DNA from: Robiginitalea sp.
GTDB lineage: Bacteria; Bacteroidota; Bacteroidia; Flavobacteriales; Flavobacteriaceae
Direction of reading: 5' to 3'
NCBI GenBank assembly: GCA_024638915.1
Contig: JAHEJJ010000005.1
Span: 670 to 64,669 of the forward strand
DNA length: 64,000 nt
The translations under genes and the position numbers were made by a program. The notes beneath the pieces were generated by a model, which was given only the letters and a program-made list of their open reading frames with translations, ran no database searches and was not told the origin of the DNA. This document shows positions 951-42,840 of this stretch, piece by piece. Position 1 is the stretch's first letter. Each line of letters begins with the position of its first letter.

Positions 951-3626
951 CTAGAAAAGAGTGGTCTGACCTTCCGATGATTTCGATTCATCATCGTTTT
1001 TGGCACCCTTCTGCTTCGATTTTTTTTCGGTTTTCTTACCCGCTGCTTTATCCTCAGTTACTACACTTTCCTCATCGATCACTTCGATATCGCGGGGTTC
1101 ATGAGTGGCTGGCTCCTCAAATGGTAAAGGTTCCAAAATATTGATATTTTTTACTTTATCGGAGGTGAGTTGATTGCCCAGTGCCCTGATTCCTTTTACC
1201 GCGATAAACTGTTCTATATCTATTTGCAGATTGGGCTTCGCATCCTTGCCCCTCGGTTTTACGAACTCGAGTTCCACCAATGGTCTCCAGTCTGTGGAAA
1301 CCAGTTCCAGATAGGATTTGGCATGGTCGGTGATCACATTCTCAACCCGGTCTTCCTTCTCGATCAGGAATCTTTTAACGTAATAGCGCTCTTTATCCCC
1401 ATCGTAATGAATAACCGAGATCGGTTTATTGGGCTTCCATTTTTCCAATACGATCATGTCGTCCTCAAAGCGCATAGTGACTTCGGGGATCGCTGTTCTC
1501 ACCTCCCCTTTTTGATTGATGATCAAAAGCCGGTCCTGACCCGTAAATTCGCCTAGCAGCTCCCCTCTTTCATCTGTGTTGAGTCGTTGGACGGTGTCGT
1601 CGAACCAAAGTTTTCTGGGTTTAAGGGTAGAGATCCCTTTTTCCTTCAACTCGATCCGTTTTACCGAATACTTTGTAACGATATTCCCTTTAGACCCACG
1701 ACCCTTAATCATCACGTCAGCAAAATCGAGCTCCCATTTCAGTTTCTTTATACTCCCAGACTGCCTTAGGTGCACGGTTACCACCTCGGCCTCACCGTTG
1801 GGGTTAGCAGAGAAATAGTGCACATCCGATCCTGATTTACCACCGCTGAGATCATAGACCTTATCGCGGGTTACCCCCGTAACATTGAACCGCTTTACAT
1901 AACTGGAGCCACCGCGGCCGTCCTTGTAGATCATGTTATAAGTGGTTCGGGCATCTTTCTTTTTAAAAACCGCCACATGGATGATGTTCTTGCCGATAAA
2001 AGTTTTGGAATCGACCTTGGTCACCACCATCTGTCCGCTTTTGGTGAAGACGATGATGTCGTCGATATCACTGCAGTCCGTTACATATTCATCCTTCCTG
2101 AGTGAGGTCCCGATAAAGCCCTCCTCGCGATTCACATAGAGTTTGGTATTTCGGATCACCACCTTGGTGGCTTCGATGTCGTCGAAAATTCGTATCTCTG
2201 ACTTCCGCTCACGCCCTTTGCCATATTTCTTCTTCAGATCTTTAAAATAGTCGATAGCATAGACCACCAGGTTTTCCAGATGGTGCCTGGTCTCTGCTAT
2301 TTTTTCTTCCAGGCTTTCGATATGTTGCTGTGCTTTGTCCAGATCGAATTTGGAAATTCTTTTGATTCTGATTTCGGTGAGCCGCACAATATCTTCCCTG
2401 TTTACAGGCCTTTTCAGATGCTTAGTGTGTGGTTGCAAACCTTTTTCGATGGCACGGATCACCCCTTCCCAGGTCTCCTCTTCCTCGATATCCCTATAGA
2501 TCCGGTTTTCTATAAAAATACGTTCAAGAGAGGCAAAATGCCATTGCTCCTCTAACTCGCTCAACTGGATCTCCAATTCGGCCTTGAGCAATTCAAGCGT
2601 ATTATCAGTAGAGCGCACGAGCATTTCTTTTACCCCGATAAATAGCGGCTTATTATCTTCTATTACACAACCCAAAGGAGAAATGGAAGATTCACAGGCT
2701 GTAAAAGCATAGAGGGCATCGATCGTTTTGTCTGGTGAAAGGCCGGATGGTAAATGCACCAGGATCTCTACTTCCGCAGCGGTATTGTCCTCTATTTTCT
2801 TGATTTTGATCTTACCCTTATCGTTAGCTTTCAGGATAGAATCTATGAGCGAAGAAGTATTGGTGGTAAATGGGATCTCTTTGATCACCAGCGTGTTCTT
2901 ATCCAGTTGATTGATGCGGGCGCGAACCCTGATCTTCCCCCCACGGTTCCCTTCGTTATAATTTGTCACATCGATGATTCCGGCGGTTGGGAAATCCGGG
3001 AATATTTTAAATCGCTGGCCTTTGAGATGTTTTATCGAGGCATCGATCAGTTCATTAAAATTATGGGGCAAGATTTTTGTGGACAGACCAACTGCAATCC
3101 CTTCGGCCCCCTGTGCCAGGAGTAAAGGAAACTTAACCGGCAAATTTACCGGTTCTTTTTTACGGCCATCATAGCTCAGTTGCCACTCTGTGATCTTCGG
3201 ACTAAAAACTACTTCAAGGGCAAACTTTGATAAACGCGCCTCGATATAACGGGAGGCGGCAGCACTATCACCGGTAAGTATGTTTCCCCAGTTACCCTGG
3301 GTATCGATCAGCAGATCCTTCTGTCCGATCTGGACCATCGCATCGGCGATACTGGCATCTCCGTGAGGGTGATATTGCATGGTGTGCCCAACTACATTGG
3401 CCACTTTATTATAGCGACCATCATCGAGCTCCTTTAAGGCGTGCATAATCCTTCGCTGCACCGGCTTAAATCCATCCTCAATAGCAGGAACGGCCCGTTC
3501 CAGGATCACATAAGAGGCATAATCCAAGAACCAATCCTTGTACATCCCGGTTACCCTGGTGAGCGTCTCCGCATTGGCATTCTGGTCTTCTTCCCAATTT
3601 TCGTTCACTTCTCCATTCTCTTCCAT
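951..3626 (-). CDS. parC: DNA topoisomerase IV subunit A (type IIA topoisomerase A subunit)
   Basis: 891 aa. GyrA/ParC N-terminal motifs (ERAVPAIEDGFKPVQRRIMHAL, AAASRYIEARL with the catalytic Tyr). Located directly downstream of a short ParE-type B subunit. Lys/Ser-rich acidic-basic C-terminal tail. Confidence 0.85.
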   Translation of the reverse strand: MEENGEVNENWEEDQNANAETLTRVTGMYKDWFLDYASYVILERAVPAIEDGFKPVQRRIMHALKELDDGRYNKVANVVGHTMQYHPHGDASIADAMVQIGQKDLLIDTQGNWGNILTGDSAAASRYIEARLSKFALEVVFSPKITEWQLSYDGRKKEPVNLPVKFPLLLAQGAEGIAVGLSTKILPHNFNELIDASIKHLKGQRFKIFPDFPTAGIIDVTNYNEGNRGGKIRVRARINQLDKNTLVIKEIPFTTNTSSLIDSILKANDKGKIKIKKIEDNTAAEVEILVHLPSGLSPDKTIDALYAFTACESSISPLGCVIEDNKPLFIGVKEMLVRSTDNTLELLKAELEIQLSELEEQWHFASLERIFIENRIYRDIEEEETWEGVIRAIEKGLQPHTKHLKRPVNREDIVRLTEIRIKRISKFDLDKAQQHIESLEEKIAETRHHLENLVVYAIDYFKDLKKKYGKGRERKSEIRIFDDIEATKVVIRNTKLYVNREEGFIGTSLRKDEYVTDCSDIDDIIVFTKSGQMVVTKVDSKTFIGKNIIHVAVFKKKDARTTYNMIYKDGRGGSSYVKRFNVTGVTRDKVYDLSGGKSGSDVHYFSANPNGEAEVVTVHLRQSGSIKKLKWELDFADVMIKGRGSKGNIVTKYSVKRIELKEKGISTLKPRKLWFDDTVQRLNTDERGELLGEFTGQDRLLIINQKGEVRTAIPEVTMRFEDDMIVLEKWKPNKPISVIHYDGDKERYYVKRFLIEKEDRVENVITDHAKSYLELVSTDWRPLVELEFVKPRGKDAKPNLQIDIEQFIAVKGIRALGNQLTSDKVKNINILEPLPFEEPATHEPRDIEVIDEESVVTEDKAAGKKTEKKSKQKGAKNDDESKSSEGQTTLF

Positions 3627-3648: not shown

Positions 3649-5508
3649 TTACAATTGGTTCTCTTCTATTAAATCAACTTCTACTTTAAGATTTTCGATG
3701 ATGAATTCCTGTCGGTCAGGGGTGTTTTTTCCCATATAGAATTTAAGGAGTTCCTCTATAGACATCGCTTTGTCGAGCATCACAGGCTCCAGCCTGATAT
3801 CGTCGCCGATAAAATGTTTGAATTCATCGGGAGAGATCTCTCCTAACCCCTTAAACCGGGTTATTTCAGGTTTGCCCTTGAGCTTCTTGATCGCTGCGGA
3901 TTTTTCCTCCTGGTTATAACAATAGATCGTCTCTTTCTTGTCGCGTACCCTGAACAGAGGGGTTTGAAGGATATAAAGGTGGTTCTCCTTGATCAGTTCG
4001 GGGAAGAATTGCAGGAAAAAAGTAATGAGCAATAATCGGATATGCATCCCGTCCACATCGGCATCAGTAGCGATCACGATATTGTTATATCTGAGGTCTT
4101 CCATAGAATCCTCAATGTTCAATGCGGCCTGCAGCAGGTTGAACTCTTCATTTTCATACACGATCTTCTTGCTCATCCCGTAGGAGTTTAGCGGCTTACC
4201 CCTCAGGCTAAAGACCGCCTGGGTATTGACATCCCTCGATTTGGTGATCGAACCCGAAGCAGAATCCCCTTCAGTGATGAATAAGGTTGATTCGAGTCTT
4301 CTTTCATTTTTCATATCACCAAGGTGGATACGACAATCCCGAAGCTTTTTATTATGCAGGCTGGCTTTTTTAGCTCGTTCGCGGGCCAGTTTGCGGATCC
4401 CAGACAATTCCTTCCGTTCTTTTTCGGCCTGCATGATCTTTCGTTGTATGCTATCGGCCACCTCGGTGTTCTTATGCAAAAAATTATCGAGCTGCTTCCC
4501 GACGAAGTCATTGATATATGTACGAACGGTGGGCAGGCCATCCCCCATTTCTGTGGAACCCAGTTTGGTTTTGGTCTGGCTTTCGAAAACCGGCTCCATC
4601 ACTTTGATAGAAATTGCAGCGATGATCGATTTGCGTATATCTGAAGCTTCGTAATTCTTACCGTAATAATCCCTGAGCGTTTTTACAATAGCTTCACGGA
4701 AAGCCGATTGATGGGTACCGCCCTGTGTGGTGTGTTGGCCGTTTACAAAGGCCTGGTATTCCTCGCTATACTGTGTCTTACTGTGTGTCATCGCCAGTTC
4801 GATGTCTTTACCTTTGAGATGAATGATGGGGTACAGCATATCATCGGCGCTGTTCTGGTCTTCCAGAAGGTCTTTTAAACCATTTTCAGAATAATACTTC
4901 TCACCGTTGAAAACAATAGTGAGTCCGGGATTGAGATAGACGTAGTTCTTAAGCATGCGTTCCACATACTCATTGCGGTACTTATATTTCTTAAAAATAC
5001 CGATGTCTGGCGTGAAAGTGACCTTGGTACCCCTCCTGCGGGAGGTCTCCTCCAGATATTCCTCATCGATGAGTTCTCCCAAATTAAACTCTGCGGCTTT
5101 GGATTTACCATCCCGGGTGGATTCCACACGAAAATAGGCAGACAGCGCGTTAACCGCTTTTGTCCCAACCCCGTTTAACCCAACGGATTTCTTAAATGCG
5201 CGGGTATCGTACTTTCCTCCGGTATTCATCTTCGATACCACATCAACCACCTTACCCAGGGGTATGCCCCGGCCGTAATCGCGCACATTTACCTTATCGC
5301 CCTGAATGGAAATATCGATGGTTTTCCCGGCGCCCATTACGAATTCATCGATACAATTATCGATCACCTCTTTGAGGAGGATGTAGATTCCGTCGTCGTG
5401 TGAAGAGCCATCACCCAGCTTACCGATGTACATACCGGGCCTCATCCTGATGTGCTCTTTCCAGTCGAGCGAGCGGATATTTTCCTCTGTATATTGGGAT
5501 TGCGCCAT
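3649..5508 (-). CDS. parE: DNA topoisomerase IV subunit B
   Basis: 619 aa. GHKL ATPase motifs ([15 protein letters not shown]), TOPRIM EGDSA and DADVDG motifs. Shorter than a typical GyrB and paired with parC. Confidence 0.85.
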
Positions 5509-33731: not shown

Positions 33732-33739
33732 TAACTTTG
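33732..33739 (+). promoter_or_regulatory. Candidate -7 promoter element (TAACTTTG)
   Basis: Perfect TAnnTTTG match. It overlaps the GTG used by the track ORF, which argues for the ATG at 33760 as the real start. Confidence 0.4.
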
Positions 33740-33759
33740 TGAATTCAAGCAGCTTATTA

Positions 33760-35220
33760 ATGGCCTCTGTACTTAACAAGGAATCTGCATTTGAGAATAT
33801 CCCTTCCCTGAAGGCTAAAGCTCTTAGAATTAATCTGAACCCGGATATTTATGGAACTTTTGCTGAGATCGGCGCTGGCCAGGAAACAGCACGACACTTT
33901 TTTCGTTCGGGTGGTGCTTCGGGGACTATAGCCAAAGCGATGAGTGCTTATGACAAGTCTTTCAGCGACGCGGTTTACGGTCCGGAATTAGACGGTCGTT
34001 ATGTTACCCAAAACAGATTGAAGACAATGCTGGATCACGAAATGAACCTGATGGTGCAGCGAATAGACAGGAAGGAACACCCAGACCGGCTCTTTTTCAC
34101 CTATGCCAATACCGTTGCCACTATCGATTTTTCAAAACGCTATAAAGGTCATGGATGGGTGGGAATCCGATTCCAATTAGATCCCAAACAGGAAGAGTTC
34201 GACGAGATCGTTCTCCATGTACGCTTTAAGCAAAATGAAGCAAGGCTTCAGCAGGAAACACTAGGCATAGTAGGAGTCAACCTCATTTATGGTGCTTTCT
34301 ACAAATACAATAAACCAAGAAAGCTACTCAAATATCTCTACGACCACATCGACCGGGATACGATCGAGGTCGATATGGTCAATTTCTCCGGTCCCAACTT
34401 TAAGGACGTGGATAATCGGTTGATGAGCCTTCAACTTATCAGGAACGACATGACCGATGCCGTGATGTTTGGTCCGGATGGTAACAATCTGCTTCCTGCA
34501 GCCGCACTCTATAAAAAGAATATTCTGGCACTGCGAGGGAGTTTCAGACCTGTTACCAAGGTAAATATGGATATGTTTCAGAAATCCTATGAAATTTTTA
34601 TCAGGGACCCTAATGTAGTAGAAGATAACACCATGGTGATTTTTGAGATCACTTTGGCAAATCTCAGAGCATCGGGTGAGATTGACGAAAGGGATTTTAT
34701 GGACCGGGCCGAACTGCTTTGTAGCCTTGGGCATACGGTTATGATATCCAAATTCCAGGAATACTATAAGTTGGTGGAATATTTTAATAATTATACCAAG
34801 GCAAAGATCGCTTTAACTATGGGGGTCAATAATCTGGTAGATATTTTTGATGAAAAATATTACCGACATCTCAGTGGAGGTATCCTTGAAGCTTTTGGCA
34901 AATTGTTCTTTAAAGACCTTATCGTATATCTCTACCCTATGAAGAATAACGAGACCGGCCAGGTGATGACCAGCAATAATATTAAGGTTCATCCCAGAAT
35001 GAAAGAACTCTATAAGTTCTTTAAATACAATGGCAAAGTGATGGATATCATCGATTACGATCCGGAGATCATGCATATTTTCTCGAGAGATGTCTTGAAA
35101 AAGATCCAAAATGGTGAAAATGGATGGGAGGAAATGCTACCGGAAGGAATTGCCGAAATCATCAAAGAAGAAAATCTATTCGCCAGTCAGGAAGAAAAAG
35201 TGGAAAAGCAACGGGTATGA
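33760..35220 (+). CDS. Large conserved cytoplasmic protein of unknown function
   Basis: About 486 aa with no signal peptide or TM helix. FAEIGAGQETARHFF segment near the N-terminus. I cannot assign a family from sequence alone. Confidence 0.6.
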   Translation: MASVLNKESAFENIPSLKAKALRINLNPDIYGTFAEIGAGQETARHFFRSGGASGTIAKAMSAYDKSFSDAVYGPELDGRYVTQNRLKTMLDHEMNLMVQRIDRKEHPDRLFFTYANTVATIDFSKRYKGHGWVGIRFQLDPKQEEFDEIVLHVRFKQNEARLQQETLGIVGVNLIYGAFYKYNKPRKLLKYLYDHIDRDTIEVDMVNFSGPNFKDVDNRLMSLQLIRNDMTDAVMFGPDGNNLLPAAALYKKNILALRGSFRPVTKVNMDMFQKSYEIFIRDPNVVEDNTMVIFEITLANLRASGEIDERDFMDRAELLCSLGHTVMISKFQEYYKLVEYFNNYTKAKIALTMGVNNLVDIFDEKYYRHLSGGILEAFGKLFFKDLIVYLYPMKNNETGQVMTSNNIKVHPRMKELYKFFKYNGKVMDIIDYDPEIMHIFSRDVLKKIQNGENGWEEMLPEGIAEIIKEENLFASQEEKVEKQRV

Positions 35221-35282: not shown

Positions 35283-35738
35283 TCAGAGGATCTGGGCAGC
35301 GTGATCCTTGGTTTTTACCTTGTCTATTACTTTTGTAATTATCCCCTGCTGATCCATAATAAAGGTTTTCCTGTGGATGCCATCGTATTCCCTGCCCATG
35401 AATTTTTTTGGCCCCCAGACCCCGAAGCCATCGATCAACTGATGGTCCTCATCTGCAATAAGGGCAAAAGGAAATTCGTATTTGTTTTTGAAATTCGATT
35501 GTTTTTTTTCAGAATCAGCACTGACCCCCAGCAGTTCATATCCCGCTTGCTGTAAATCTTTATAGTGATCTCTCAGATTACATGCTTCCGCTGTACAACC
35601 CGGTGTACTGGCTTTTGGATAGAAAAATACCACAAGTTTTTTACCTTCAAAATCGGAGAGTTTTACCGTATTCCCATCCTGGTCCTTTGCGGTGAAATTC
35701 GGTGCCTTGTCCCCTGCCTTCAATGTTTTCATAGTCAA
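35283..35738 (-). CDS. bcp: Thioredoxin-dependent thiol peroxidase (peroxiredoxin Bcp)
   Basis: 151 aa. Peroxidatic Cys motif PKASTPGCTAEA; AhpC/TSA fold. Confidence 0.88.
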   Translation of the reverse strand: MTMKTLKAGDKAPNFTAKDQDGNTVKLSDFEGKKLVVFFYPKASTPGCTAEACNLRDHYKDLQQAGYELLGVSADSEKKQSNFKNKYEFPFALIADEDHQLIDGFGVWGPKKFMGREYDGIHRKTFIMDQQGIITKVIDKVKTKDHAAQIL

Positions 35739-35768
35739 TTTTTAATTAAATTCGCGTTTGATTTTGTT

Positions 35769-35776
35769 CAAAAATA
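35769..35776 (-). promoter_or_regulatory. Candidate -7 promoter element (TATTTTTG) for bcp
   Basis: The reverse complement of caaaaata is TATTTTTG. It lies 30 nt upstream of the bcp ATG. Confidence 0.4.
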
Positions 35777-35781
35777 ACAAA

Positions 35782-36441
35782 ATGACCAAAGCAGAAAAAG
35801 TAAAATTCATTATTGATACTCTGGAAGAGCTTTACCCAAAAGTTCCCATTCCCCTTGAGCATAAAGACCCGTTCACACTTCTGATCGCCGTTCTTTTGTC
35901 GGCTCAGAGTACAGATGTAAAAGTGAACCAGATCACCCCATTGCTTTTTCAAAGGGCACGCACACCATTCGAAATGGTAAAACTCAGTATAGAGGAAATC
36001 AGGGAAATCATAAAACCAGTCGGTTTATCGCCTTCAAAAGCCAAGGCGATTCATGGGTTATCGGAAATTCTGATCAAAAAGTACGACGGTGAGGTGCCCC
36101 GGGAGTTAGACTTGCTAGAGGAATTACCCGGAGTCGGTCATAAAACAGCGAGCGTAGTTGTTTCCCAGGCCTTTGGAATTAATGCATTTCCGGTCGACAC
36201 CCATATTCACAGACTTATGTATCGCTGGGGACTGAGCAATGGTAAAAATGTGGTTCAGACCGAAAGGGACGCCAAGAGATTATTTCCCGAAGAAAGCTGG
36301 AATAAACTACATCTGCAGATTATCTGGTATGGCAGACAATACTGCCCGGCCAGAGGCTGGGATCTAGAACGGGATATCATCACAAAAAAGGTGGGCAGGA
36401 AAACGGTTATTAGGAAATATTACAAAAAAAAGACCCGCTAA
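35782..36441 (+). CDS. Endonuclease III-family HhH-GPD DNA glycosylase lacking the Fe-S cluster cysteines
   Basis: HhH motif LPGVGHKTASVV with the catalytic Lys, and VDTHIHR with the catalytic Asp. The C-terminus has a single Cys and a Lys/Arg-rich tail where CX6CX2CX5C would normally be. The ATG at 35782 (MTKAEK) is preferred. Confidence 0.75.
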   Translation: MTKAEKVKFIIDTLEELYPKVPIPLEHKDPFTLLIAVLLSAQSTDVKVNQITPLLFQRARTPFEMVKLSIEEIREIIKPVGLSPSKAKAIHGLSEILIKKYDGEVPRELDLLEELPGVGHKTASVVVSQAFGINAFPVDTHIHRLMYRWGLSNGKNVVQTERDAKRLFPEESWNKLHLQIIWYGRQYCPARGWDLERDIITKKVGRKTVIRKYYKKKTR

Positions 36442-36451
36442 ATGCGGGTCT
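36431..36451. terminator. Bidirectional rho-independent terminator (nth-like gene and sigma module 1)
   Basis: Stem agacccgc / gcgggtct with loop taaat, which contains the nth-like stop codon. An A run lies upstream and a T-rich stretch downstream. Confidence 0.7.
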
Positions 36452-36460
36452 GTGATTTTC

Positions 36461-36604
36461 TTAGTTCAAATTTGTTTCAAATTTGAGATCCCCATAATTT
36501 GTGCAGTGAAAAGATCGGGAAAAATCCATCAGAAACCTTATCGTTTCAGGGCTAACCTTAAATGATCTTCCAACACTTTTTTCTTGAGAGTAAATTTTTT
36601 CCAT
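36461..36604 (-). CDS. Unannotated 47-aa ORF downstream of sigma factor 1 (paralogue of 37589-37732)
   Basis: Hand translation gives MEKIYSQEKSVGRSFKVSPETIRFLMDFSRSFHCTNYGDLKFETNLN. It has the same length, the same MEKIY start, the same NLN-stop end and the same 68-nt spacing from the sigma stop as the second copy. It is below the 60-aa cutoff of the ORF track. Confidence 0.6.
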   Translation of the reverse strand: MEKIYSQEKSVGRSFKVSPETIRFLMDFSRSFHCTNYGDLKFETNLN

Positions 36605-36672
36605 ATGATTATAGTATCGTTATGTTAAAATAACGCCACTATTATGGAAATATTGCTTGGTTTTAGAACGAA

Positions 36673-37257
36673 TTAAGAATTCGTCAGCACAATTTTATGT
36701 TTGTTGATAATCTTCCTAAGGTTGATCAGGGCATAGCGCATTCTTCCAAGGGCCGTATTAATGCTTACACCGGTATTTTCAGAGATTTCTTTAAAGCTCA
36801 TATCACGGTATATCCTCATCAGGAGCACCTCTTTCTGATCGTCGGGCAATTCGTCGATCAACAGGCTAAGATCGCTATCTATCTGTTCTTTGATCAATTG
36901 CTTTTCCGCATTGAGTTTATCGTCGCCGATGACTGAGAATATATTAAAATCGTCATTTCCTTCGAATTTAGGCATACGCTTGTTTCTGCGAAAATGATCT
37001 ATTATGAGGTTATGAGCAATACGCATTACCCAAGGCAAGAATTTACCTTCTTCGCTGTAGCGTCCTTTTTTTAAGGTTTTGATAACCTTTATAAATGTAT
37101 CTTGAAAAATATCCTCAGTGATATCACGATCCAGGACTTTGGAATAAATAAAACTGGTGATCCGCTGATTGTGTTTTTTGACAAGAATTTCAAGGGCGGC
37201 TTCGTCCCCGCTGATGTAGTCCCTTACAAGTATTGAATCATCTAATTGCGTTTCCAT
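36673..37257 (-). CDS. RNA polymerase sigma-70 family (ECF-type) sigma factor, copy 1
   Basis: 194 aa. Region 2 (ITEDIFQDTFIKVIKTL, WVMRIAHNLIIDHFRR) and region 4 HTH (MSFKEISENTGVSINTALGRMRYALINLR). Confidence 0.88.
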   Translation of the reverse strand: METQLDDSILVRDYISGDEAALEILVKKHNQRITSFIYSKVLDRDITEDIFQDTFIKVIKTLKKGRYSEEGKFLPWVMRIAHNLIIDHFRRNKRMPKFEGNDDFNIFSVIGDDKLNAEKQLIKEQIDSDLSLLIDELPDDQKEVLLMRIYRDMSFKEISENTGVSINTALGRMRYALINLRKIINKHKIVLTNS

Positions 37258-37518
37258 ATATAAAGTATTTTTTGGTTAATCGCTGCTCTTGTCTGAAAAG
37301 ATCAGCGTCATTAGAATTGGTTATTTCTCTTATTATTCTGAGTCATGGAATAAAAGTAGAGAAATAGCCTCCTGCCAAAAAAACTATGTTGTGTAACCCA
37401 CGATTTATGATGTCAAACACCGTTTTTAGGATTTCTGATACAATAAATCGGTTTATTTGGAGTTGAGCGGCCACTCAGCGCCAGGTTGAAGATCTTGCAA
37501 GATTATTCTGTCTGTAAC

Positions 37519-37552
37519 CAAAAATCCCTCCGATTCGCTAATCAGAGGGATC
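37519..37552 (-). terminator. Rho-independent terminator of sigma module 2
   Basis: On the minus strand: gatccctc-t-gatt-agcg-aatc-g-gagggat, followed by TTTTT. It lies 37 nt after the stop of the 47-aa ORF. Confidence 0.65.
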
Positions 37553-37588
37553 TGTTGATGTATATAAGAACTATATTATCTTGCGGTT

Positions 37589-37732
37589 TTAATTAAGATT
37601 ATTCTCGAAAGTGAACTTTTTATGTTTTACTATATTCAAAGACTGCGAGTATTTTAATAAAAACGATACCTTCTCAGGGCTGGTTTTAATAAGTTTACAG
37701 CGATCTTTATATTCCGGGTAGATTTTCTCCAT
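37589..37732 (-). CDS. Unannotated 47-aa ORF downstream of sigma factor 2 (paralogue of 36461-36604)
   Basis: Hand translation gives (M)MEKIYPEYKDRCKLIKTSPEKVSFLLKYSQSLNIVKHKKFTFENNLN. An extra in-frame ATG lies at 37735. About 19 of 47 positions are identical to copy 1 by eye. Confidence 0.6.
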   Translation of the reverse strand: MEKIYPEYKDRCKLIKTSPEKVSFLLKYSQSLNIVKHKKFTFENNLN

Positions 37733-37803
37733 CATGCTTTGTTGTTACCATAAATTAACGGAAGCAACAGCACAACCATTCGGATTAATCGACCTAAAAC
37801 CTA

Positions 37804-38385
37804 TTAATTCGTCAAAACTATATTATTCTTTTCGATGATTTTGCGCAAATTGATCAGGGCATAGCGCATACGCCCCAGGGCTGTGTTAATGCTAACACCC
37901 GTATTTTCAGATATTTCCTTAAAACTCATGTCGCGGTATATCCTCATCATCAGTACCTCTTTCTGATCATCGGGCAACTCCTCGATCAGCATAGTCAGAT
38001 CGCTATCGATCTGATCTTTGATCAGTTGTTTCTCGGCATTGAGCTTATCATCGCCCAAAACAGAAAAAATATTGAAATCTTCCGAGCCTTCGAAACGCGG
38101 CATTCTTTTGTTTCTTCGGAAATGGTCGATAATAAGGTTATGAGCAATCCGCATAACCCAGGGCAAGAACTTACCCTCCTCACTATAATTTCCTTTTTTC
38201 AGGGTTTTAATGACCTTGATAAAAGTATCCTGGAAGATATCTTCAGTGATATCCCTGTTCAATACCTTGGAATAAATAAAACTGCTGAGGCGTTGATTAT
38301 GTTTCAGGATCAGCTTCTCAAGCGCCATTTCGTCACCGCTGATATAATCTCTTACTAGAATAGAATCTTCGATCTGTAGTTCCAT
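37804..38385 (-). CDS. RNA polymerase sigma-70 family (ECF-type) sigma factor, copy 2
   Basis: Collinear with copy 1, with roughly two dozen substitutions over about 193 residues by eye. The start MELQIEDS at 38385 is preferred by homology to the ATG at 38391. Confidence 0.88.
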   Translation of the reverse strand: MELQIEDSILVRDYISGDEMALEKLILKHNQRLSSFIYSKVLNRDITEDIFQDTFIKVIKTLKKGNYSEEGKFLPWVMRIAHNLIIDHFRRNKRMPRFEGSEDFNIFSVLGDDKLNAEKQLIKDQIDSDLTMLIEELPDDQKEVLMMRIYRDMSFKEISENTGVSINTALGRMRYALINLRKIIEKNNIVLTN

Positions 38386-38507
38386 ACACATTACTTTTTT
38401 GGTTAAATAAGGGGCCCTTTCAAGAAGCAGGGACTTCAGCTATTTAGGTTAAATCACAAAAAAGTAATGGTCTATGTATAGGCGATCTGTTACGAATTAT
38501 TATAAAT

Positions 38508-38515
38508 CAAATATA
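38508..38515 (-). promoter_or_regulatory. Candidate -7 promoter element (TATATTTG) for sigma factor copy 2
   Basis: The reverse complement of caaatata is a perfect TAnnTTTG. It lies about 123 nt upstream of the ATG at 38385, which implies a long leader. Confidence 0.4.
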
Positions 38516-38607
38516 GAAAAAATATGAGTTGATAAAAAAACAATGTTGTGATTTGACGGTTTTTTGAGGTATAATAACACTTATTAGTTATTGAAAACCC
38601 CATGTTG

Positions 38608-38615
38608 TATCTTTG
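38608..38615 (+). promoter_or_regulatory. Candidate -7 promoter element (TATCTTTG) for uvrA
   Basis: Perfect TAnnTTTG match ending only 8 nt before the uvrA ATG at 38624, which implies a very short or absent leader. Confidence 0.45.
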
Positions 38616-38623
38616 CAAATTCC

Positions 38624-41413
38624 ATGAGTAAACCCATTTCCATTTCAGAGGCAGACCCCAAAGACAATATTATTATTAAGGGGGCTAAGCTACACAACCT
38701 GAAGAACATAGACGTTGTAATCCCACGTAACAAGTTGGTGGTGATCACAGGTTTATCGGGTTCGGGAAAGTCCACCCTGGCCTTCGATACCCTTTATGCC
38801 GAGGGTCAAAGACGCTATGTTGAGAGTTTGTCATCTTATGCCAGACAATTTTTGGGGAAACTCGACAAACCCAAGGTCGATTTTATAAAAGGGATCGCCC
38901 CGGCCATCGCTATCGAACAGAAAGTCAACTCCACCAACCCACGCTCCACGGTAGGTACTTCCACCGAGATATACGATTATTTAAAATTATTGTACGCGCG
39001 TATAGGTAAGACCTTTTCCCCGATTTCCGGAAAGCAGGTCAAGAAACACACCACCTCGGATGTTGTAAACCATTTAAAAGGATTCGAAGAGGGTACCCGG
39101 CTTCTGCTTCTGGCACCAATAGTTGTTCCCGAGGACAGGGATCCACAAAAGATATTGCAGGTTCTATCTAAACAAGGCTATGCCCGGATAAAATTCAAGA
39201 ATAGTATACATCGGGTGGATGAATCTCTGCCAGGTCTCGGAAGAACTTTTGAGCTGGTGGTAGACCGGATCGTGATGAAAGATGATGAAGATTTTTTCTT
39301 TCGCCTGGCTAATGCTATCGATACCGCTTTTTTTGAAGGCAAGGGCGAATGTATGATCGAAGAGGTGGAAAATGGGAACCGTCATATTTTTAGTACCAAG
39401 TTCGAGCTCGACGGTATGATCTTCCCCGATCCCAACGTACACCTGTTCAGCTTTAACAATCCTTATGGGGCCTGTCCAAAATGTGAGGGCTATGGCGATG
39501 TCATCGGTATCGACCAAAAGCTTGTAGTACCTAACACGGGATTGTCGGTATATGAAAATGCCATATTTCCCTGGCGCGGTGAAAGCATGAGCTGGTATCG
39601 GGATCAATTGGTGAACAGTGCCTATAAGTTCAACTTTCCCATCCATAAACCCTGGTTTAAGCTCAGCGAAGCCGAAAAAGAGCTCGTATGGTCGGGCAAT
39701 GAATATTTTATCGGCATCGATAACTTTTTTAAAAAACTGGAAGAGAAGAGCTACAAGATACAGAACCGGGTTATGCTCTCCAGATATAGGGGTAAGACCC
39801 GTTGTAGTTCCTGTAACGGAAGGCGTCTGAGAGAGGAGACCGACTACATTAAACTGGGTGGCAAGTCCATTTCAGACCTTGTAGAGCTTCCTATCGATAA
39901 GCTTATCAATTTTTTTGACACCCTTGAATTGAAGGCGCACGACAAAAAGATTTCTGGCCGGCTGCTCAAAGAAATCACTACCAGGCTGGGATTCCTGAAT
40001 AAGGTAGGATTGAGCTATCTGACGCTGAATAGGAAATCCAATAGCTTATCGGGTGGTGAAAGTCAGCGTATTAATCTGGCCACTTCATTGGGCAGCAGCC
40101 TGGTAGGCTCTATGTACATCCTAGACGAACCGAGCATTGGCTTACATCCCAAGGACACCGAAAGCCTGATAGGCGTGCTGAAATCACTCAGAGATCTTGG
40201 AAATACAGTGATTGTTGTTGAGCACGATGAAGATATCATGCGTGCCGCCGATGAGGTGATCGATATTGGTCCTGAGGCAGGCACCCACGGCGGAGAAGTG
40301 GTCGCTCATGGTAATATCGATATAGTTTTGAGTTCTTCCTCTCTAACCGCAGGATATCTCAATGGAAAGCTTAAAATTATAACACCAGAAGCAAGACGTA
40401 CATCTAAAAACTTCATCACTATCAAGGGAGCCAGGGAAAATAACCTCAAAAATATCGATGTGCTTTTTCCGCTCAATATGCTCACTGTGGTAACCGGTGT
40501 CTCAGGAAGTGGCAAAAGTACCCTTGTTAGAAAGCTTCTGTACCCCATCATACAAAAAGAGATCGGTGGTTATGGAGAACGTGCCGGTCAGTATACCGAA
40601 TTCGAAGGGAAATTCCAGGCGATAAAAAATGTGGAGTTCGTGGATCAAAACCCGATAGGACGTTCTTCCAGATCAAATCCCGTAACCTATATAAAGGCAT
40701 ATGATGACATCCGAAATCTATTTGCTACGCAACGATTGAGTAAGATAAGGGGTTACCAGGCGAAGCATTTTTCATTTAATGTAGATGGCGGACGCTGTGA
40801 GAAATGCAAAGGTGAAGGCGAGATTACCGTCGAGATGCAGTTTATGGCCGATGTGCATCTGGAATGTGATACTTGCAAGGGAAAACGCTTTAAAAAAGAA
40901 GTCCTGGAAGTAAGGTTCGAAGAAGTCAACATAGACGATGTTCTTAATATGACCATCGATAACGCCGTAGAGTTCTTCGAAAATACCAACCAGAAACGGA
41001 TCGTGGGAAAATTAAAATCCCTGCAAGATGTCGGTCTTGGTTATGTAACATTAGGACAGTCGTCTTCTACCCTCTCGGGAGGCGAAGCACAACGGATAAA
41101 ACTGGCTTCCTTTCTGCTAAAAGGGAACGACAAGGATAAAACGCTGTTCATTTTTGATGAACCCACCACAGGGTTACATTTTCACGATATCAATAAATTA
41201 CTCACGTCCTTCAATGCGCTAATCTCCAGGGGGCATTCGATAATTGTTATCGAACATAATATCGAGCTGATCAAATGCGCCGATTACATTATTGATCTCG
41301 GACCCGATGGTGGTGAAAAAGGTGGACAACTTATTGCCTCAGGGACACCGGAAGAACTGCTTAAATCCGAAGCATCGTATACCGCCAGATACTTGAGGGA
41401 AAAGCTCGATTAA
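38624..41413 (+). CDS. uvrA: Excinuclease ABC subunit A
   Basis: About 929 aa. Two ABC ATPase modules (GLSGSGKST and GVSGSGKST Walker A; two LSGGE signatures) and Zn-finger CxxC pairs. The track ORF starts at a TTG at 38591; the ATG at 38624 (MSKPISI) is preferred. Confidence 0.95.
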
Positions 41414-41583: not shown

Positions 41584-42840
41584 ATGAAAAGGTTAGTATT
41601 TTATTCCGTGATACTCCTGTTGGGCATCACCTATGTCCAGGCAGAAGTTGGAAAAGACAACTCAGCAACATATTTTAATAACTATGGGAAATCCTTCATT
41701 TTTGAAGAGAGCGGCACTACGTTTTCAGTGTATCCCGATGGTGAATTCGACTTTTACATCAATAACCGTCTCAATGCAGGCGCCTTTGTGAGTACAGGTT
41801 CGGCCAGTTTCACATTCAACTCTGGCTATAGCTACAACTCGTATGTTCAATATGATGATTACGGTGCCGTTATCCAGGTGGAAAATGTACCGATTTATTA
41901 TGATTATTACGGGCGGGTAAGCCAGATCGGTAATGTCAATATTTGGTATCGCAACAATCGCGTCAGACGTATAGGTGGTTTAAATGTTTATTATAACAAT
42001 AGAGGTTATTACGATTATTGTACAGGTTATGTCAATATATATAACAGACACTATGTTTACCGACCCTATCACCGATACTTTGTAAGACCTGTTGTTGGAT
42101 TTTGTAATGTATGGACAACACCCTATCGTAGGTATTATTACCCTACACGATATACCTATTACAGCCCATACTACCATAATTACAGGAGGTCCTATGTGCA
42201 AGTAGGCAGGCCTTACCGCCACTATAATAAAGGACACCACAGGTCACGTATTTACAGGAATGACCGTAGAGTAGCCGTCAGGAAGAACCATGGCAGAAAC
42301 GAATATGGCCATACCAGGGGTGAGGTTCGATATGCGAACAACCATAGAAACGGTACCAGGAATACTGTGCGAAAAAACAGTGCCGTAAGATCTTCCAGCG
42401 GGAACAGGAGCAGCCTGACCAGGTCTAAAGCTGTACGAAATTCAGACAATGGTAGGAATACTGTGCGCAGATCGGTGACCAATAGTGAGCGTCCCCAGAC
42501 AAGGGGTGCCTCGAGAACGATAAAGCGAAGTGATGCATCTCCTAAGGCGAGAAATATCGTCAAAAACAGCCGGGCTGATAGTCCGAAGAGACAGGTCACA
42601 TCGAGAAGCTCAAGGACTGTGGTCAAGCGCAGCACTAAGCCAGAGGGAAGAAGATCTTATGAAAGAAATACAAAATCGACTAAGACTTCAGTTGCGAGAT
42701 CTGGAAACCGGGAGGTTAAACGCAGTACAAGCATAGCACAAAGAAGGCCTTCCGATAGGAGCAAATCTAGTAGTGCTAAGAAAAGTTCAAGATCTAATAA
42801 GAAAGGAACTTATAGCCGAAGCAGCAGAACAGTGCGATAA
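41584..42840 (+). CDS. Secreted low-complexity protein: Tyr/Asn/Arg-rich N-terminal region plus Ser/Arg/Lys-rich polybasic tail
   Basis: 418 aa. Signal peptide MKRLVFYSVILLLGITYVQA. Repeated G-x-V-x-x-I-G-x-V/L-N-I/V-x-Y-x-N-N-R units. The C-terminal ~200 aa are almost entirely S/R/K/N/T, with internal repeats (GRNTVR twice, SSRTV twice, VKRST twice). An exact 14-nt repeat AGGAATACTGTGCG occurs at 42358 and 42454. Confidence 0.6.
   Translation: MKRLVFYSVILLLGITYVQAEVGKDNSATYFNNYGKSFIFEESGTTFSVYPDGEFDFYINNRLNAGAFVSTGSASFTFNSGYSYNSYVQYDDYGAVIQVENVPIYYDYYGRVSQIGNVNIWYRNNRVRRIGGLNVYYNNRGYYDYCTGYVNIYNRHYVYRPYHRYFVRPVVGFCNVWTTPYRRYYYPTRYTYYSPYYHNYRRSYVQVGRPYRHYNKGHHRSRIYRNDRRVAVRKNHGRNEYGHTRGEVRYANNHRNGTRNTVRKNSAVRSSSGNRSSLTRSKAVRNSDNGRNTVRRSVTNSERPQTRGASRTIKRSDASPKARNIVKNSRADSPKRQVTSRSSRTVVKRSTKPEGRRSYERNTKSTKTSVARSGNREVKRSTSIAQRRPSDRSKSSSAKKSSRSNKKGTYSRSSRTVR

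What the first reader, a model, noticed from the sequence alone, without database searches (positions are those of the whole stretch)
36461..37735. Pair of unannotated 47-aa ORFs downstream of each sigma factor, diverged far more than the sigmas
Hand translation of the minus strand downstream of each sigma gene gives two ORFs. The first (36461-36604) reads MEKIYSQEKSVGRSFKVSPETIRFLMDFSRSFHCTNYGDLKFETNLN. The second (37589-37732) reads MEKIYPEYKDRCKLIKTSPEKVSFLLKYSQSLNIVKHKKFTFENNLN. Both are 47 codons long, start with MEKIY, share an internal SPE...FL...S core and end with FE-x-NLN-stop. Each begins exactly 68 nt after the sigma stop. Preservation of frame, length and termini despite about 60 percent sequence divergence argues that they are translated. 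They have no TM helix and no motif I recognise. The contrast between a near-identical sigma and a fast-diverging small partner is what would be expected of a cognate regulator, such as a minimal anti-sigma or adaptor, that has specialised after duplication. That interpretation is inference only. A soluble sigma partner of this size is not a described class that I know of.
Basis: partly seen in the sequence, partly recalled or inferred. Interest (0 to 1): 0.78.

Follow-up and report, generated by a model that had tools for sequence, protein, structure and literature searches.

The report
Conserved 47-residue partner of flavobacterial sigma
Both small ORFs are real genes for a tiny, uncharacterised protein that always follows one conserved alternative sigma factor in marine Flavobacteriaceae; it is most likely that sigma's dedicated regulator, but no binding has been shown.

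Summary
Two tandem ECF-type sigma genes (88% identical) are each followed by a 47-codon ORF (40% identical) and a strong terminator.

The ORFs are genuine coding genes:
- All 119 sigma modules in 80 related loci carry one.
- Codon-position variability and dN/dS (about 0.4, against 0.03 for sigma) fit coding sequence.
- About 1,100 database relatives are all stand-alone proteins of 32-80 aa labelled 'hypothetical'. None matches Pfam, NCBIfam or PDB.

AlphaFold predicts a flexible tail, one helix and a beta-hairpin (pLDDT 82).

The sigma-ORF spacer is not neutral. It holds an invariant CAATA-N15-CGTTA two-box element with ECF-promoter geometry. The stretch between the boxes is complementary to the ORF's own start region. 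Codons 2-6 ('MEKIY') are frozen at synonymous sites.

The duplication is old and shared by 37 of 80 loci. Synonymous sites are saturated in both gene pairs, so the contrast reflects different constraint, not recent specialisation.

A sigma-binding role (minimal soluble anti-sigma or feedback regulator) is the best inference from strict linkage, but it is untested. A mirror-tree test gave no cognate-specific signal. Small soluble anti-sigmas already exist (NepR, CsfB). I rate this a new variant of a known kind, of moderate interest.

The parts
36461..36604 (-). Small ORF, copy A (47 aa plus stop): MEKIYSQEKSVGRSFKVSPETIRFLMDFSRSFHCTNYGDLKFETNLN. Promoter-distal ('b-type') module.
   Evidence: Orthologues in all related loci. 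AF2 model: helix 19-31, beta-hairpin 32-45, pLDDT 82. Not among public gene calls.
36605..36672 (-). Spacer A (68 nt) between sigma A and small ORF A. It contains the CAATA box (36651-36655), the anti-start strand UUUCCAUA (36643-36650), the CGTTAT box (36630-36635) and an inner hairpin CGUUAU/AUAACG (36618-36635).
   Evidence: CAATA-N15-CGTT is invariant in 80/80 single-copy and b-type modules. Exact match at 36631-36655. The MFE fold pairs UUUCCAUA with UAUGGAAA of the start region: -16.1 kcal/mol, z -3.85.
36673..37257 (-). ECF-type sigma gene, copy A (194 aa), the slowly evolving 'b-type' paralogue.
   Evidence: Sigma70_r2 plus r4, and TIGR02937 above its cut-off. 86-90% identical to orthologues.
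36423..36451 (-). Intrinsic terminator after small ORF A (8-bp GC stem plus U-run). It is shared tail-to-tail with the convergent nth gene.
   Evidence: -16 kcal/mol, z -4.7.
37589..37732 (-). Small ORF, copy B (47 aa plus stop): MEKIYPEYKDRCKLIKTSPEKVSFLLKYSQSLNIVKHKKFTFENNLN. There is an alternative in-frame ATG at 37735. Promoter-proximal ('a-type') module.
   Evidence: A called gene in the public collection.
37733..37803 (-). Spacer B (71 nt). It keeps the CGTTAA box (37755-37760), but the CAATA half is degenerate (AATGG), as in other a-type modules.
   Evidence: The fold pairs the start region: -21.5 kcal/mol, z -2.1.
37804..38391 (-). ECF-type sigma gene, copy B (195 aa as the longest ORF; orthologues start at the ATG at 38385). 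This is the faster-evolving 'a-type' paralogue.
37517..37559 (-). Intrinsic terminator after small ORF B (long GC-rich hairpin followed by UUUUU).
   Evidence: -22.4 kcal/mol, z -5.9.
38386..38515 (-). Conserved leader of the sigma operon. It contains a TATATTTG -7 box (38508-38515), a GCCTATAC box (38476-38483) and a long-range helix, CATTACTTTTTTG (38457-38469) with CCAAAAAAGTAATG (38389-38402), that covers the region just upstream of the sigma start codon.
   Evidence: Helix: 89% of cells paired, 4 pairs with compensatory change, 0/500 shuffles reach the covariation score. Present in the MFE fold. No Rfam match.

Best explanation
Each ORF encodes a 47-residue cytoplasmic protein. It has a flexible N-terminal tail, one amphipathic helix (core ETIxFLLxYSKSL), a beta-hairpin and an invariant C-terminal Asn. 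It is the dedicated partner of the ECF-type sigma factor encoded immediately upstream.

I think it most likely binds that sigma and restrains it, that is, acts as a minimal soluble anti-sigma or feedback regulator.

Shown:
- It is a genuine, purifying-selected gene family.
- It is always found directly after this sigma, with no terminator between them and a terminator after it.
- The spacer carries an invariant two-box element, CAATA-N15-CGTTA.
- The sequence between the boxes is complementary to the ORF's start region.

Inferred:
- On the sigma-ORF bicistronic mRNA, made from a housekeeping TAnnTTTG promoter, the ORF's start codon is base-paired and poorly translated.
- The two-box element is an ECF-type promoter (hexamer nnCAAT, 16 nt, CGT). 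It would make a short transcript lacking the masking strand, so the small protein is produced in proportion to sigma activity and closes a feedback loop.
- Alternatively, in genera where the sigma stop codon abuts the element, terminating ribosomes could melt the helix and couple the two translations.

Binding to sigma, the sign of the effect and the transcription start site are all untested.
For: Coding and selection:
- 119/119 modules keep the ORF.
- Entropy by codon position is 1.06/0.74/1.47, and dN/dS is about 0.4 against 0.03 for sigma.
- Core residues T21, L25, S29, L46 and N47 use all synonymous codons.

Linkage:
- Divergent family members also sit directly after the 194-aa sigma.
- Both copies were retained after an old tandem duplication in 37 loci.
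- The uvrA/sigma-ORF/nth arrangement holds in 73/74 and 78/79 loci.

Operon:
- Terminators follow the ORFs only.

Spacer element:
- CAATA and CGTT are invariant at fixed spacing across genera whose flanks are unalignable.
- The element occurs nowhere else in 690 kb of loci.
- A CGT -10 box is the flavobacterial ECF promoter hallmark, and flavobacteria lack Shine-Dalgarno sequences (PMC9723704).

Start masking:
- Mean MFE z is -2.5 to -2.9. The start-region pairing probability is 0.62-0.68 against about 0.50 in shuffles, and is higher in 104/114 modules.
- Cognate duplexes are -6.1 and -8.8 kcal/mol, against -4.0 and -4.7 across clades.
- Tyr5 is TAC in 91/92 sequences against a 36% background.

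Precedent:
- Conserved genes next to ECF sigma genes, usually in the +1 position, are commonly their anti-sigmas, and soluble ones are under-detected (PMC7826278).
- NepR's 32-residue core suffices to bind its sigma (PMC4551977).
Against: - No physical or modelled interaction is available.
- There is no sequence or fold similarity to any known anti-sigma domain. The predicted fold (one helix plus a hairpin) is unlike the helical class I and II anti-sigma domains.
- The mirror-tree test shows no module-specific co-evolution. The accelerated a-type sigma (a-a 75% against b-b 89%) is not mirrored by its peptide.
- Classical sigma/anti-sigma pairs are usually tightly translationally coupled, not separated by a regulated 51-79-nt spacer.
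- The -35-like box is CAAT rather than the usual AAC, and it is degenerate in a-type modules.
- No second site suggesting a regulon was found in the window or loci.
- No sensing input (zinc or Cys motif, TM segment, partner-switch gene) is evident.
Confidence: 0.4

Rival explanations
1. The small protein is an output of the sigma rather than its regulator. It would be the principal, perhaps only, local target gene, transcribed from the spacer's ECF-type promoter. It would act on something else (RNAP core, DNA, a repair or stress component) without binding sigma.
For: - The promoter-like element sits upstream of the ORF only, not upstream of either sigma gene.
- There is no cognate-specific co-evolution.
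- The fold is unlike known anti-sigma domains. Weak, non-significant Foldseek hits are to helix-plus-wing parts of winged-helix DNA binders.
- The module occupies a fixed slot between uvrA and nth.
Against: - 100% co-occurrence with the sigma gene, and co-retention after duplication, are more than expected of an ordinary regulon member.
- The gene is never found detached from the sigma in the contexts examined.
- 47 residues with a disordered third leave little room for an autonomous activity.
Confidence: 0.25
2. The peptide is a positive cofactor. It would stabilise sigma, or be required for holoenzyme formation or promoter recognition, like Crl or the RsoA subunit of a two-part sigma.
For: - The same strict linkage evidence applies.
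- This sigma is exceptionally conserved, with dN/dS 0.03, and no membrane anti-sigma is present.
- A sigma-dependent promoter for an activator would give positive feedback.
Against: - The sigma has complete sigma2 and sigma4 domains, so no missing part needs supplying.
- Masking of the ORF's start codon suggests the cell limits this protein. That fits an inhibitor better than an obligate subunit.
Confidence: 0.15
3. The region is a non-coding 3' UTR or regulatory RNA, and the reading frame is incidental.
For: - The spacer and the first six codons are under nucleotide-level constraint and form a stable structure.
- Gene callers missed copy A.
Against: - The frame is open in 119/119 modules despite saturated synonymous change.
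- Length is nearly fixed, at 47 aa in 100 of 119.
- Second codon positions are the most conserved.
- Conserved core residues vary freely at synonymous sites.
- The alignment gives a confident AF2 fold.
Confidence: 0.03
4. The ORF is a precursor peptide for a modified product, for example microcin-C-like, whose precursors end in an essential Asn.
For: The C-terminal Asn is invariant in 119/119 sequences.
Against: - The conserved neighbours are only sigma, uvrA, nth and bcp. No adenylyltransferase, exporter or immunity gene is present.
- The whole C-terminal two-thirds is predicted to fold.
Confidence: 0.02

Closest known systems
NepR, the anti-sigma of EcfG-type ECF sigmas in Alphaproteobacteria
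   Same: It is a small soluble protein (68 aa in Caulobacter) encoded beside its ECF sigma. It has disordered flanks around a roughly 32-residue sigma-binding core. Paralogous sigma/NepR sets occur in one genome (PMC4551977, PMC4814048).
   Different: NepR's core is two helices, and it is controlled by the PhyR partner switch. Here the predicted core is one helix plus a beta-hairpin, and no PhyR-like gene is linked. There is no sequence similarity: the PDB profile search found nothing. The phylum is also different.
CsfB (Gin), anti-sigma of sigma-G and sigma-E in Bacillus subtilis
   Same: It is a very small (64 aa) soluble sigma inhibitor whose gene is itself under sigma-factor control (PMC5890618).
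   Different: CsfB is a zinc treble-clef homodimer that acts on group-3 sigmas. The family here has no conserved Cys or His and accompanies an ECF sigma.
CfrX, the small protein linked to SigX (ECF102) in Pseudomonas aeruginosa
   Same: It is an uncharacterised small soluble protein (84 aa) next to an ECF sigma. It is transcribed from a promoter dependent on that sigma and is proposed, but not shown, to regulate it (PMC7641640, PMC7826278). The best NCBIfam hit of the sigmas here is PRK12513, which I recall (from memory, not checked here) to be the SigX-like model; the score is below its cut-off.
   Different: CfrX lies upstream of sigX in an operon with a mechanosensitive channel. No similarity to the 47-aa family was detected, and membership of ECF102 was not tested.
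Canonical class I anti-sigma factors (RseA, RsiW, RsrA, ChrR)
   Same: The position immediately downstream of the ECF sigma gene, and co-transcription with it.
   Different: Those have a four-helix anti-sigma domain of about 80-90 aa, often with a zinc motif and usually a TM segment. None of these features is present here.
Start-codon-masking mRNA structures used for translational coupling or transcript-isoform-specific translation
   Same: An upstream strand pairs with the start region of the downstream cistron. It is supported here by clade-specific complementarity and synonymous-site constraint.
   Different: Here the masking strand lies between the two boxes of a putative internal promoter. 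The same DNA would then serve as promoter spacer and, in the longer transcript, as translational mask. This is inferred, not demonstrated.

Membership tests
Protein-coding gene (as opposed to non-coding 3' UTR) | The reading frame and length are preserved in relatives despite sequence divergence. | tested here: met
   119/119 modules have the ORF. Lengths are 45-52 aa, with 100 of 119 exactly 47.
Protein-coding gene (as opposed to non-coding 3' UTR) | Codon-position bias in substitutions and dN/dS below 1. | tested here: met
   Entropy by codon position is 1.06/0.74/1.47, and median dN/dS is 0.41. The window pair has pN 0.37 and pS 0.84.
Protein-coding gene (as opposed to non-coding 3' UTR) | Direct evidence of translation (Ribo-seq or mass spectrometry). 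| not testable with these tools
   No such data are accessible here.
ECF (group 4) sigma factor, for the two upstream genes | Sigma2 and sigma4 domains only, about 190 aa, matching the ECF superfamily model. | tested here: met
   Sigma70_r2, Sigma70_r4_2 and Sigma70_ECF match, and TIGR02937 scores 88-90 bits against a cut-off of 42.9. No equivalog-level NCBIfam model reaches its cut-off.
Class I anti-sigma domain (RseA/RsrA/ChrR type) | Helical anti-sigma domain of about 80-90 aa detectable by Pfam or PDB profiles, often with an HxxxCxxC zinc motif. | tested here: not met
   No Pfam or NCBIfam hit at E<=1, and none recurrent among 70 members at E<=10. No PDB sequence hit at E<=10. Only one predicted helix. 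No conserved Cys or His.
Class II anti-sigma domain (NepR/CnrY type) | Two short helices that clamp sigma2 and sigma4. | tested here: not met
   The AF2 model has one helix (19-31) plus a beta-hairpin. No sequence match to solved NepR or CnrY chains. No Foldseek hit with E<1.
Any anti-sigma factor (functional definition) | Binds its cognate sigma and blocks its association with RNAP core. | not testable with these tools
The indirect co-evolution test was negative or inconclusive.
CsfB/Gin-type anti-sigma | Zinc-binding treble-clef fold with conserved Cys ligands. | tested here: not met
   The mean is 0.8 Cys per protein, and only 11% have two or more.
ECF-type promoter, for the spacer element | Two conserved blocks at fixed spacing of about 16-17 nt, with CGT in the -10 block. 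| tested here: met
   nnCAAT-N16-CGTTA(T) is invariant in 80/80 single-copy and b-type modules. The CGT -10 box as ECF hallmark in flavobacteria is from PMC9723704.
ECF-type promoter, for the spacer element | AAC core in the -35 block, and a mapped transcription start 6-9 nt after the -10 block. | tested here: inconclusive
   The -35-like block reads CAAT(A), not AAC, and it is degenerate in a-type modules. No transcription start data are available.
Intrinsic terminator, after each small ORF | GC-rich hairpin followed by a U-run. | tested here: met
   (z -4.7 and -5.9). The same arrangement is visible in nearly all loci.
Rfam RNA families, for the spacer and leader | Match to a curated covariance model. 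| tested here: not met
   Only sub-threshold chance hits in 35500-39000, overlapping the terminator.

The most novel reading that the evidence does not exclude
The 47-aa family is a previously unrecognised structural class of minimal soluble ECF anti-sigma (tail, helix, beta-hairpin). Its production is switched by transcript isoform. The spacer of a sigma-dependent internal promoter doubles, in the read-through mRNA, as the strand that masks the ORF's start codon. The inhibitor would therefore be translated only from the sigma-driven short transcript. Combined with the structured sigma leader, this would be a self-contained, membrane-independent feedback module conserved across Flavobacteriaceae.
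Probability: 0.2. Interest if true: 0.75.

Novelty: new variant of a known kind. Interest (0 to 1): 0.55.

Why it matters
Flavobacteriaceae are major marine polymer degraders, and their ECF sigma networks are almost unstudied. This sigma is among the most conserved in the family (72-90% identity across genera). It has no recognisable anti-sigma.

A strictly linked 47-residue protein family of about 1,100 members, with no Pfam, NCBIfam or PDB relative, gives a concrete and easily testable candidate for its regulator. It would extend the short list of soluble mini anti-sigmas.

The conserved spacer and leader elements also provide defined handles (CAATA, CGTTA, the masking strand) for dissecting how translation is controlled in a phylum that lacks Shine-Dalgarno sequences.

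If the peptide turns out not to bind sigma, the finding reduces to one more conserved small hypothetical protein with an unusually well-defined expression signal.

Tried and rejected
- Pfam, NCBIfam, a PDB profile search and two Foldseek searches found nothing meaningful.
- Rfam found nothing in the spacer or leader.
- RNAalifold on the sigma leader returned no consensus. Only the manually specified long-range helix could be tested.
- The inner hairpin CGTTAT/ATAAC is frequent (78% of cells paired), but its covariation is not significant, with 89/500 shuffles as high. I therefore do not claim it as a structural element.
- Motif searches for further CAATA-N15-CGTTA sites gave chance-level counts in the window and none in the loci outside the modules. 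No regulon could be proposed.
- The mirror-tree (Mantel) test for cognate-specific co-evolution was negative.
- I considered a link to SigX/CfrX, but the NCBIfam score is below its cut-off and there is no peptide similarity.
- I considered a microcin-C-like precursor because of the invariant C-terminal Asn. I rejected it because no modifying genes are in the conserved neighbourhood.
- A 389-aa 'cluster member' (P0281) is an unrelated clustering artefact.
- The ECF re-classification paper's supplementary tables were not available, so the sigma's ECF group could not be assigned.
- The family's extent outside Flavobacteriaceae could not be delimited, because only the 80 closest loci were returned.
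Full report
**1. What is in the window**

On the minus strand, the interval between uvrA (38591-41413, +) and nth (35758-36441, +) holds two tandem modules. Each module has three parts:
- an ECF-type sigma gene (36673-37257 and 37804-38391), with Sigma70_r2 and r4 domains and TIGR02937 above its cut-off;
- a 47-codon ORF (36461-36604 and 37589-37732);
- a strong hairpin plus U-run terminator (-16 kcal/mol, z -4.7; and -22.4 kcal/mol, z -5.9).

No terminator lies between a sigma gene and its ORF. The sigmas are 88% identical and the ORFs 40% identical, without gaps. The '68 nt' spacing is exact for copy A. For copy B it is 71 nt from the MEKIY start.

**2. The ORFs are real genes**

I fetched 80 loci encoding relatives of the sigma. 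All were Flavobacteriaceae or unclassified Bacteroidota MAGs, with 72-90% sigma identity. They contain 119 sigma modules. Every module is followed by a homologous ORF of 45-52 codons (100 of them exactly 47), usually 51-79 nt downstream.

Evidence for coding selection:
- Variability by codon position is 1.06, 0.74 and 1.47 bits.
- Median dN/dS in unsaturated pairs is 0.41, against 0.03 for sigma in the same pairs.
- Conserved core residues (T21, L25, S29, L46, N47) use all their synonymous codons, so the selection is on the protein.

The consensus is M-[EA]-K-[IL]-Y, a variable stretch, P-x-x-E-T-[IV]-x-F-L-L-x-Y-S-K-[SA]-L-x-V, a further stretch, F-E-x-x-L-N-stop. M1, S29 and N47 are invariant.

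**3. The family**

A profile search found 1,096 proteins at E<=0.01. An exhaustive HMM search of 1.84 billion cluster representatives found 180 clusters at E<=0.001. All listed hits are stand-alone proteins of 32-80 aa, never a domain of something larger. Where named, they are 'hypothetical protein' from genera such as Maribacter, Eudoraea, Cellulophaga, Arenibacter, Psychroflexus and Aquimarina.

Two of the most divergent members also lie directly after a 194-aa sigma, one of them visibly next to uvrA. The uvrA/module/nth arrangement holds in 73/74 and 78/79 loci.

There is no Pfam, NCBIfam or PDB sequence match. In this genome's public gene calls, the copy-B peptide is present and the copy-A peptide is absent.

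**4. Predicted structure**

AlphaFold2 with a 124-sequence alignment gives pLDDT 81.8. Residues 1-18 are unstructured, residues 19-31 form a helix, and residues 32-37 and 40-45 form a beta-hairpin. A first run with a shallower alignment gave the same topology.

Foldseek against the PDB finds nothing below E=1. There is no TM segment (maximum 19-residue hydropathy 1.21) and no zinc-type Cys/His pattern.

**5. The duplication and the 'fast partner' contrast**

A second, upstream sigma-ORF module is present in 37 of the 80 loci, so the duplication long predates this genome.

In the window, synonymous sites are saturated in both pairs: sigma pS is 0.80 and ORF pS is 0.84. Non-synonymous divergence is 0.084 for sigma and 0.37 for the ORF. 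The two pairs are therefore equally old. The contrast is one of constraint, not of accelerated specialisation or gene conversion.

Across genomes the promoter-distal ('b') sigma is slow-evolving (b-b 89%). The promoter-proximal ('a') sigma is fast-evolving (a-a 75%). The peptides do not follow this pattern (a-a 54%, b-b 51%).

A distance-matrix test gave cognate correlations of 0.52 and 0.57 and non-cognate correlations of 0.75 and 0.69. This gives no support for paralogue-specific co-evolution. The test is weak because of shared phylogeny and saturation.

**6. The spacer is a conserved control region**

In all 80 single-copy and b-type modules the spacer contains CAATA, exactly 15 nt, then CGTT(A/T). 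These are the only invariant positions in otherwise unalignable sequence. Read as nnCAAT-N16-CGT, this has the geometry of an ECF promoter. A CGT -10 box is the ECF signature reported from mapped transcription starts in Flavobacterium psychrophilum (PMC9723704).

A weight matrix of the element finds no other site in 690 kb of loci or in the window. A looser pattern gives chance-level counts. In a-type modules, including window copy B, the CAATA half is degenerate while CGTT persists.

The 15 nt between the boxes are complementary to the ORF's own start region. This tracks the clade:
- UUUCCAU pairs with AUGGAAA where the ORF begins MEK.
- (A)AAGUAAAUUUUGCC(A) pairs with (U)GGCAAAAUUUACU where it begins MAK.

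Supporting numbers:
- Cognate duplex energies are -6.1 and -8.8 kcal/mol, against -4.0 and -4.7 for cross-clade combinations. The z score against shuffled spacers is -1.2 to -2.2.
- Whole-spacer folds have a mean z of -2.5 to -2.9.
- The start region is more often paired than in shuffles in 104 of 114 modules.
- The window's two spacers give z -3.85 and -2.1, with the AUG inside a helix.
- Codons 2-6 are frozen at synonymous sites. Tyr5 is TAC in 91/92 sequences, although TAC is 36% of Tyr codons in the sigma genes and Tyr28 is mostly TAT. Lys3 is AAA in 67/71 and Ile4 is ATT in 68/72.

The small hairpin CGUUAU/AUAAC is common but lacks significant covariation.

**7. Mechanism proposed**

Shown:
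- A two-gene unit with a single terminator.
- A conserved two-box element in the spacer.
- A strand that masks the ORF's start region.

Inferred:
- The operon is transcribed from a housekeeping TAnnTTTG promoter.
- On that long mRNA the small ORF is poorly translated.
- Either the spacer element is a promoter used by the sigma itself, producing a short unmasked transcript, so that peptide output follows sigma activity.
- Or, where the sigma stop codon abuts the element, terminating ribosomes open the helix and couple the two translations.

Strict linkage, the +1 position and retention of both copies after duplication suggest a dedicated regulator. The cell's evident effort to limit the peptide's translation adds to this. 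I therefore consider a sigma-binding inhibitor the most likely role (about 0.4). The alternatives are a sigma-dependent effector that does not bind sigma (0.25) and a positive cofactor (0.15). Non-coding and RiPP-precursor readings are essentially excluded.

**8. Comparison with known systems**

Small soluble anti-sigmas are already described:
- NepR: 68 aa, with a 32-residue helical core that binds its ECF sigma (PMC4551977).
- CsfB: 64 aa, a zinc treble-clef dimer (PMC5890618).
- CfrX: 84 aa, linked to SigX and driven by a SigX-dependent promoter. It is a proposed but unproven regulator (PMC7641640).

The ECF re-classification paper notes that soluble anti-sigmas without similarity to known ones are probably missed (PMC7826278).

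The present family fails the sequence and fold criteria of class I, class II and CsfB-type domains (see the membership table). If it is an anti-sigma, it is a new structural variant of a known functional kind.

**9. Verdict**

The coding status and the sigma linkage are firmly established. The regulatory interpretation is plausible but unproven, and the 'specialised after duplication' and 'undescribed class' elements are not supported.

The added value from this analysis has three parts:
- the family-wide evidence;
- the conserved spacer element with a start-codon mask;
- the structured sigma leader.

Interest is moderate (0.55).

Noticed in passing
window 38386-38515 (minus strand), and the equivalent region in about 70 related modules: A conserved leader of about 120 nt precedes the sigma operon. 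It runs TATATTTG (-7 box), GCCTATA(C/G), ATTACTTTTTT, a variable GC hairpin, then TTAACCAAAAAAGTAAT 3-4 nt before the ATG. The two A/T-rich blocks form a long-range helix that buries the region just upstream of the sigma start codon. 89% of cells are paired, 4 pairs show compensatory changes, and 0/500 shuffles reach the covariation score. There is no Rfam match. It may be an undescribed cis-regulatory leader, for example a thermosensor or translational attenuator.
   Followed up: partly
window 36618-36655 (copy A) and 37755-37760 (copy B); L001-L080 spacers: The invariant two-box element CAATA-N15-CGTTA(T) is found only between the sigma gene and the small ORF. The upstream box has decayed in the promoter-proximal (a-type) paralogous modules, including window copy B.
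   Followed up: yes
L001-L056 and the window: The tandem duplication of the whole sigma-plus-small-ORF module is shared by 37 of 80 loci (Maribacter, Eudoraea, Arenibacter, Zeaxanthinibacter, Ulvibacterium, Spongiimicrobium and others). The promoter-proximal sigma copy evolves much faster than the distal one (a-a 75% against b-b 89% identity). Most of the extra variation lies in residues 1-20 and 101-140, the sigma2-sigma4 linker.
   Followed up: partly
L003 about 2875-3450 and L055 about 4001-4580: Two loci have a frameshift or an in-frame stop inside the sigma gene while the downstream small ORF stays intact. One of the records (L055) is a MAG, so these may be assembly errors or sigma pseudogenes.
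   Followed up: no
window 41584-42840 (+): A 418-aa ORF with a signal-peptide-like N-terminus, a Tyr/Asn-rich middle and a long Arg/Ser/Lys-rich low-complexity tail. It has no Pfam match. It contains the only other exact CAATA-N15-CGTTA match in the window (41848-41872), which is probably chance.
   Followed up: no
window 33739-35220 (+): A 493-aa ORF with no Pfam family at E<=0.001, lying between an MBL-fold gene and bcp.
   Followed up: no
window 37258-37480 (minus strand), upstream of sigma copy A: The b-type sigma genes have their own conserved upstream blocks: TTTGACAACATA(C/G)TTTTTT, TA(G/C)TTTTA and TTAACCAAAAAA. These look like a diverged copy of the a-type leader, including a UUUUUUGG/CCAAAAAA pairing. 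The promoter type is unclear.
   Followed up: no
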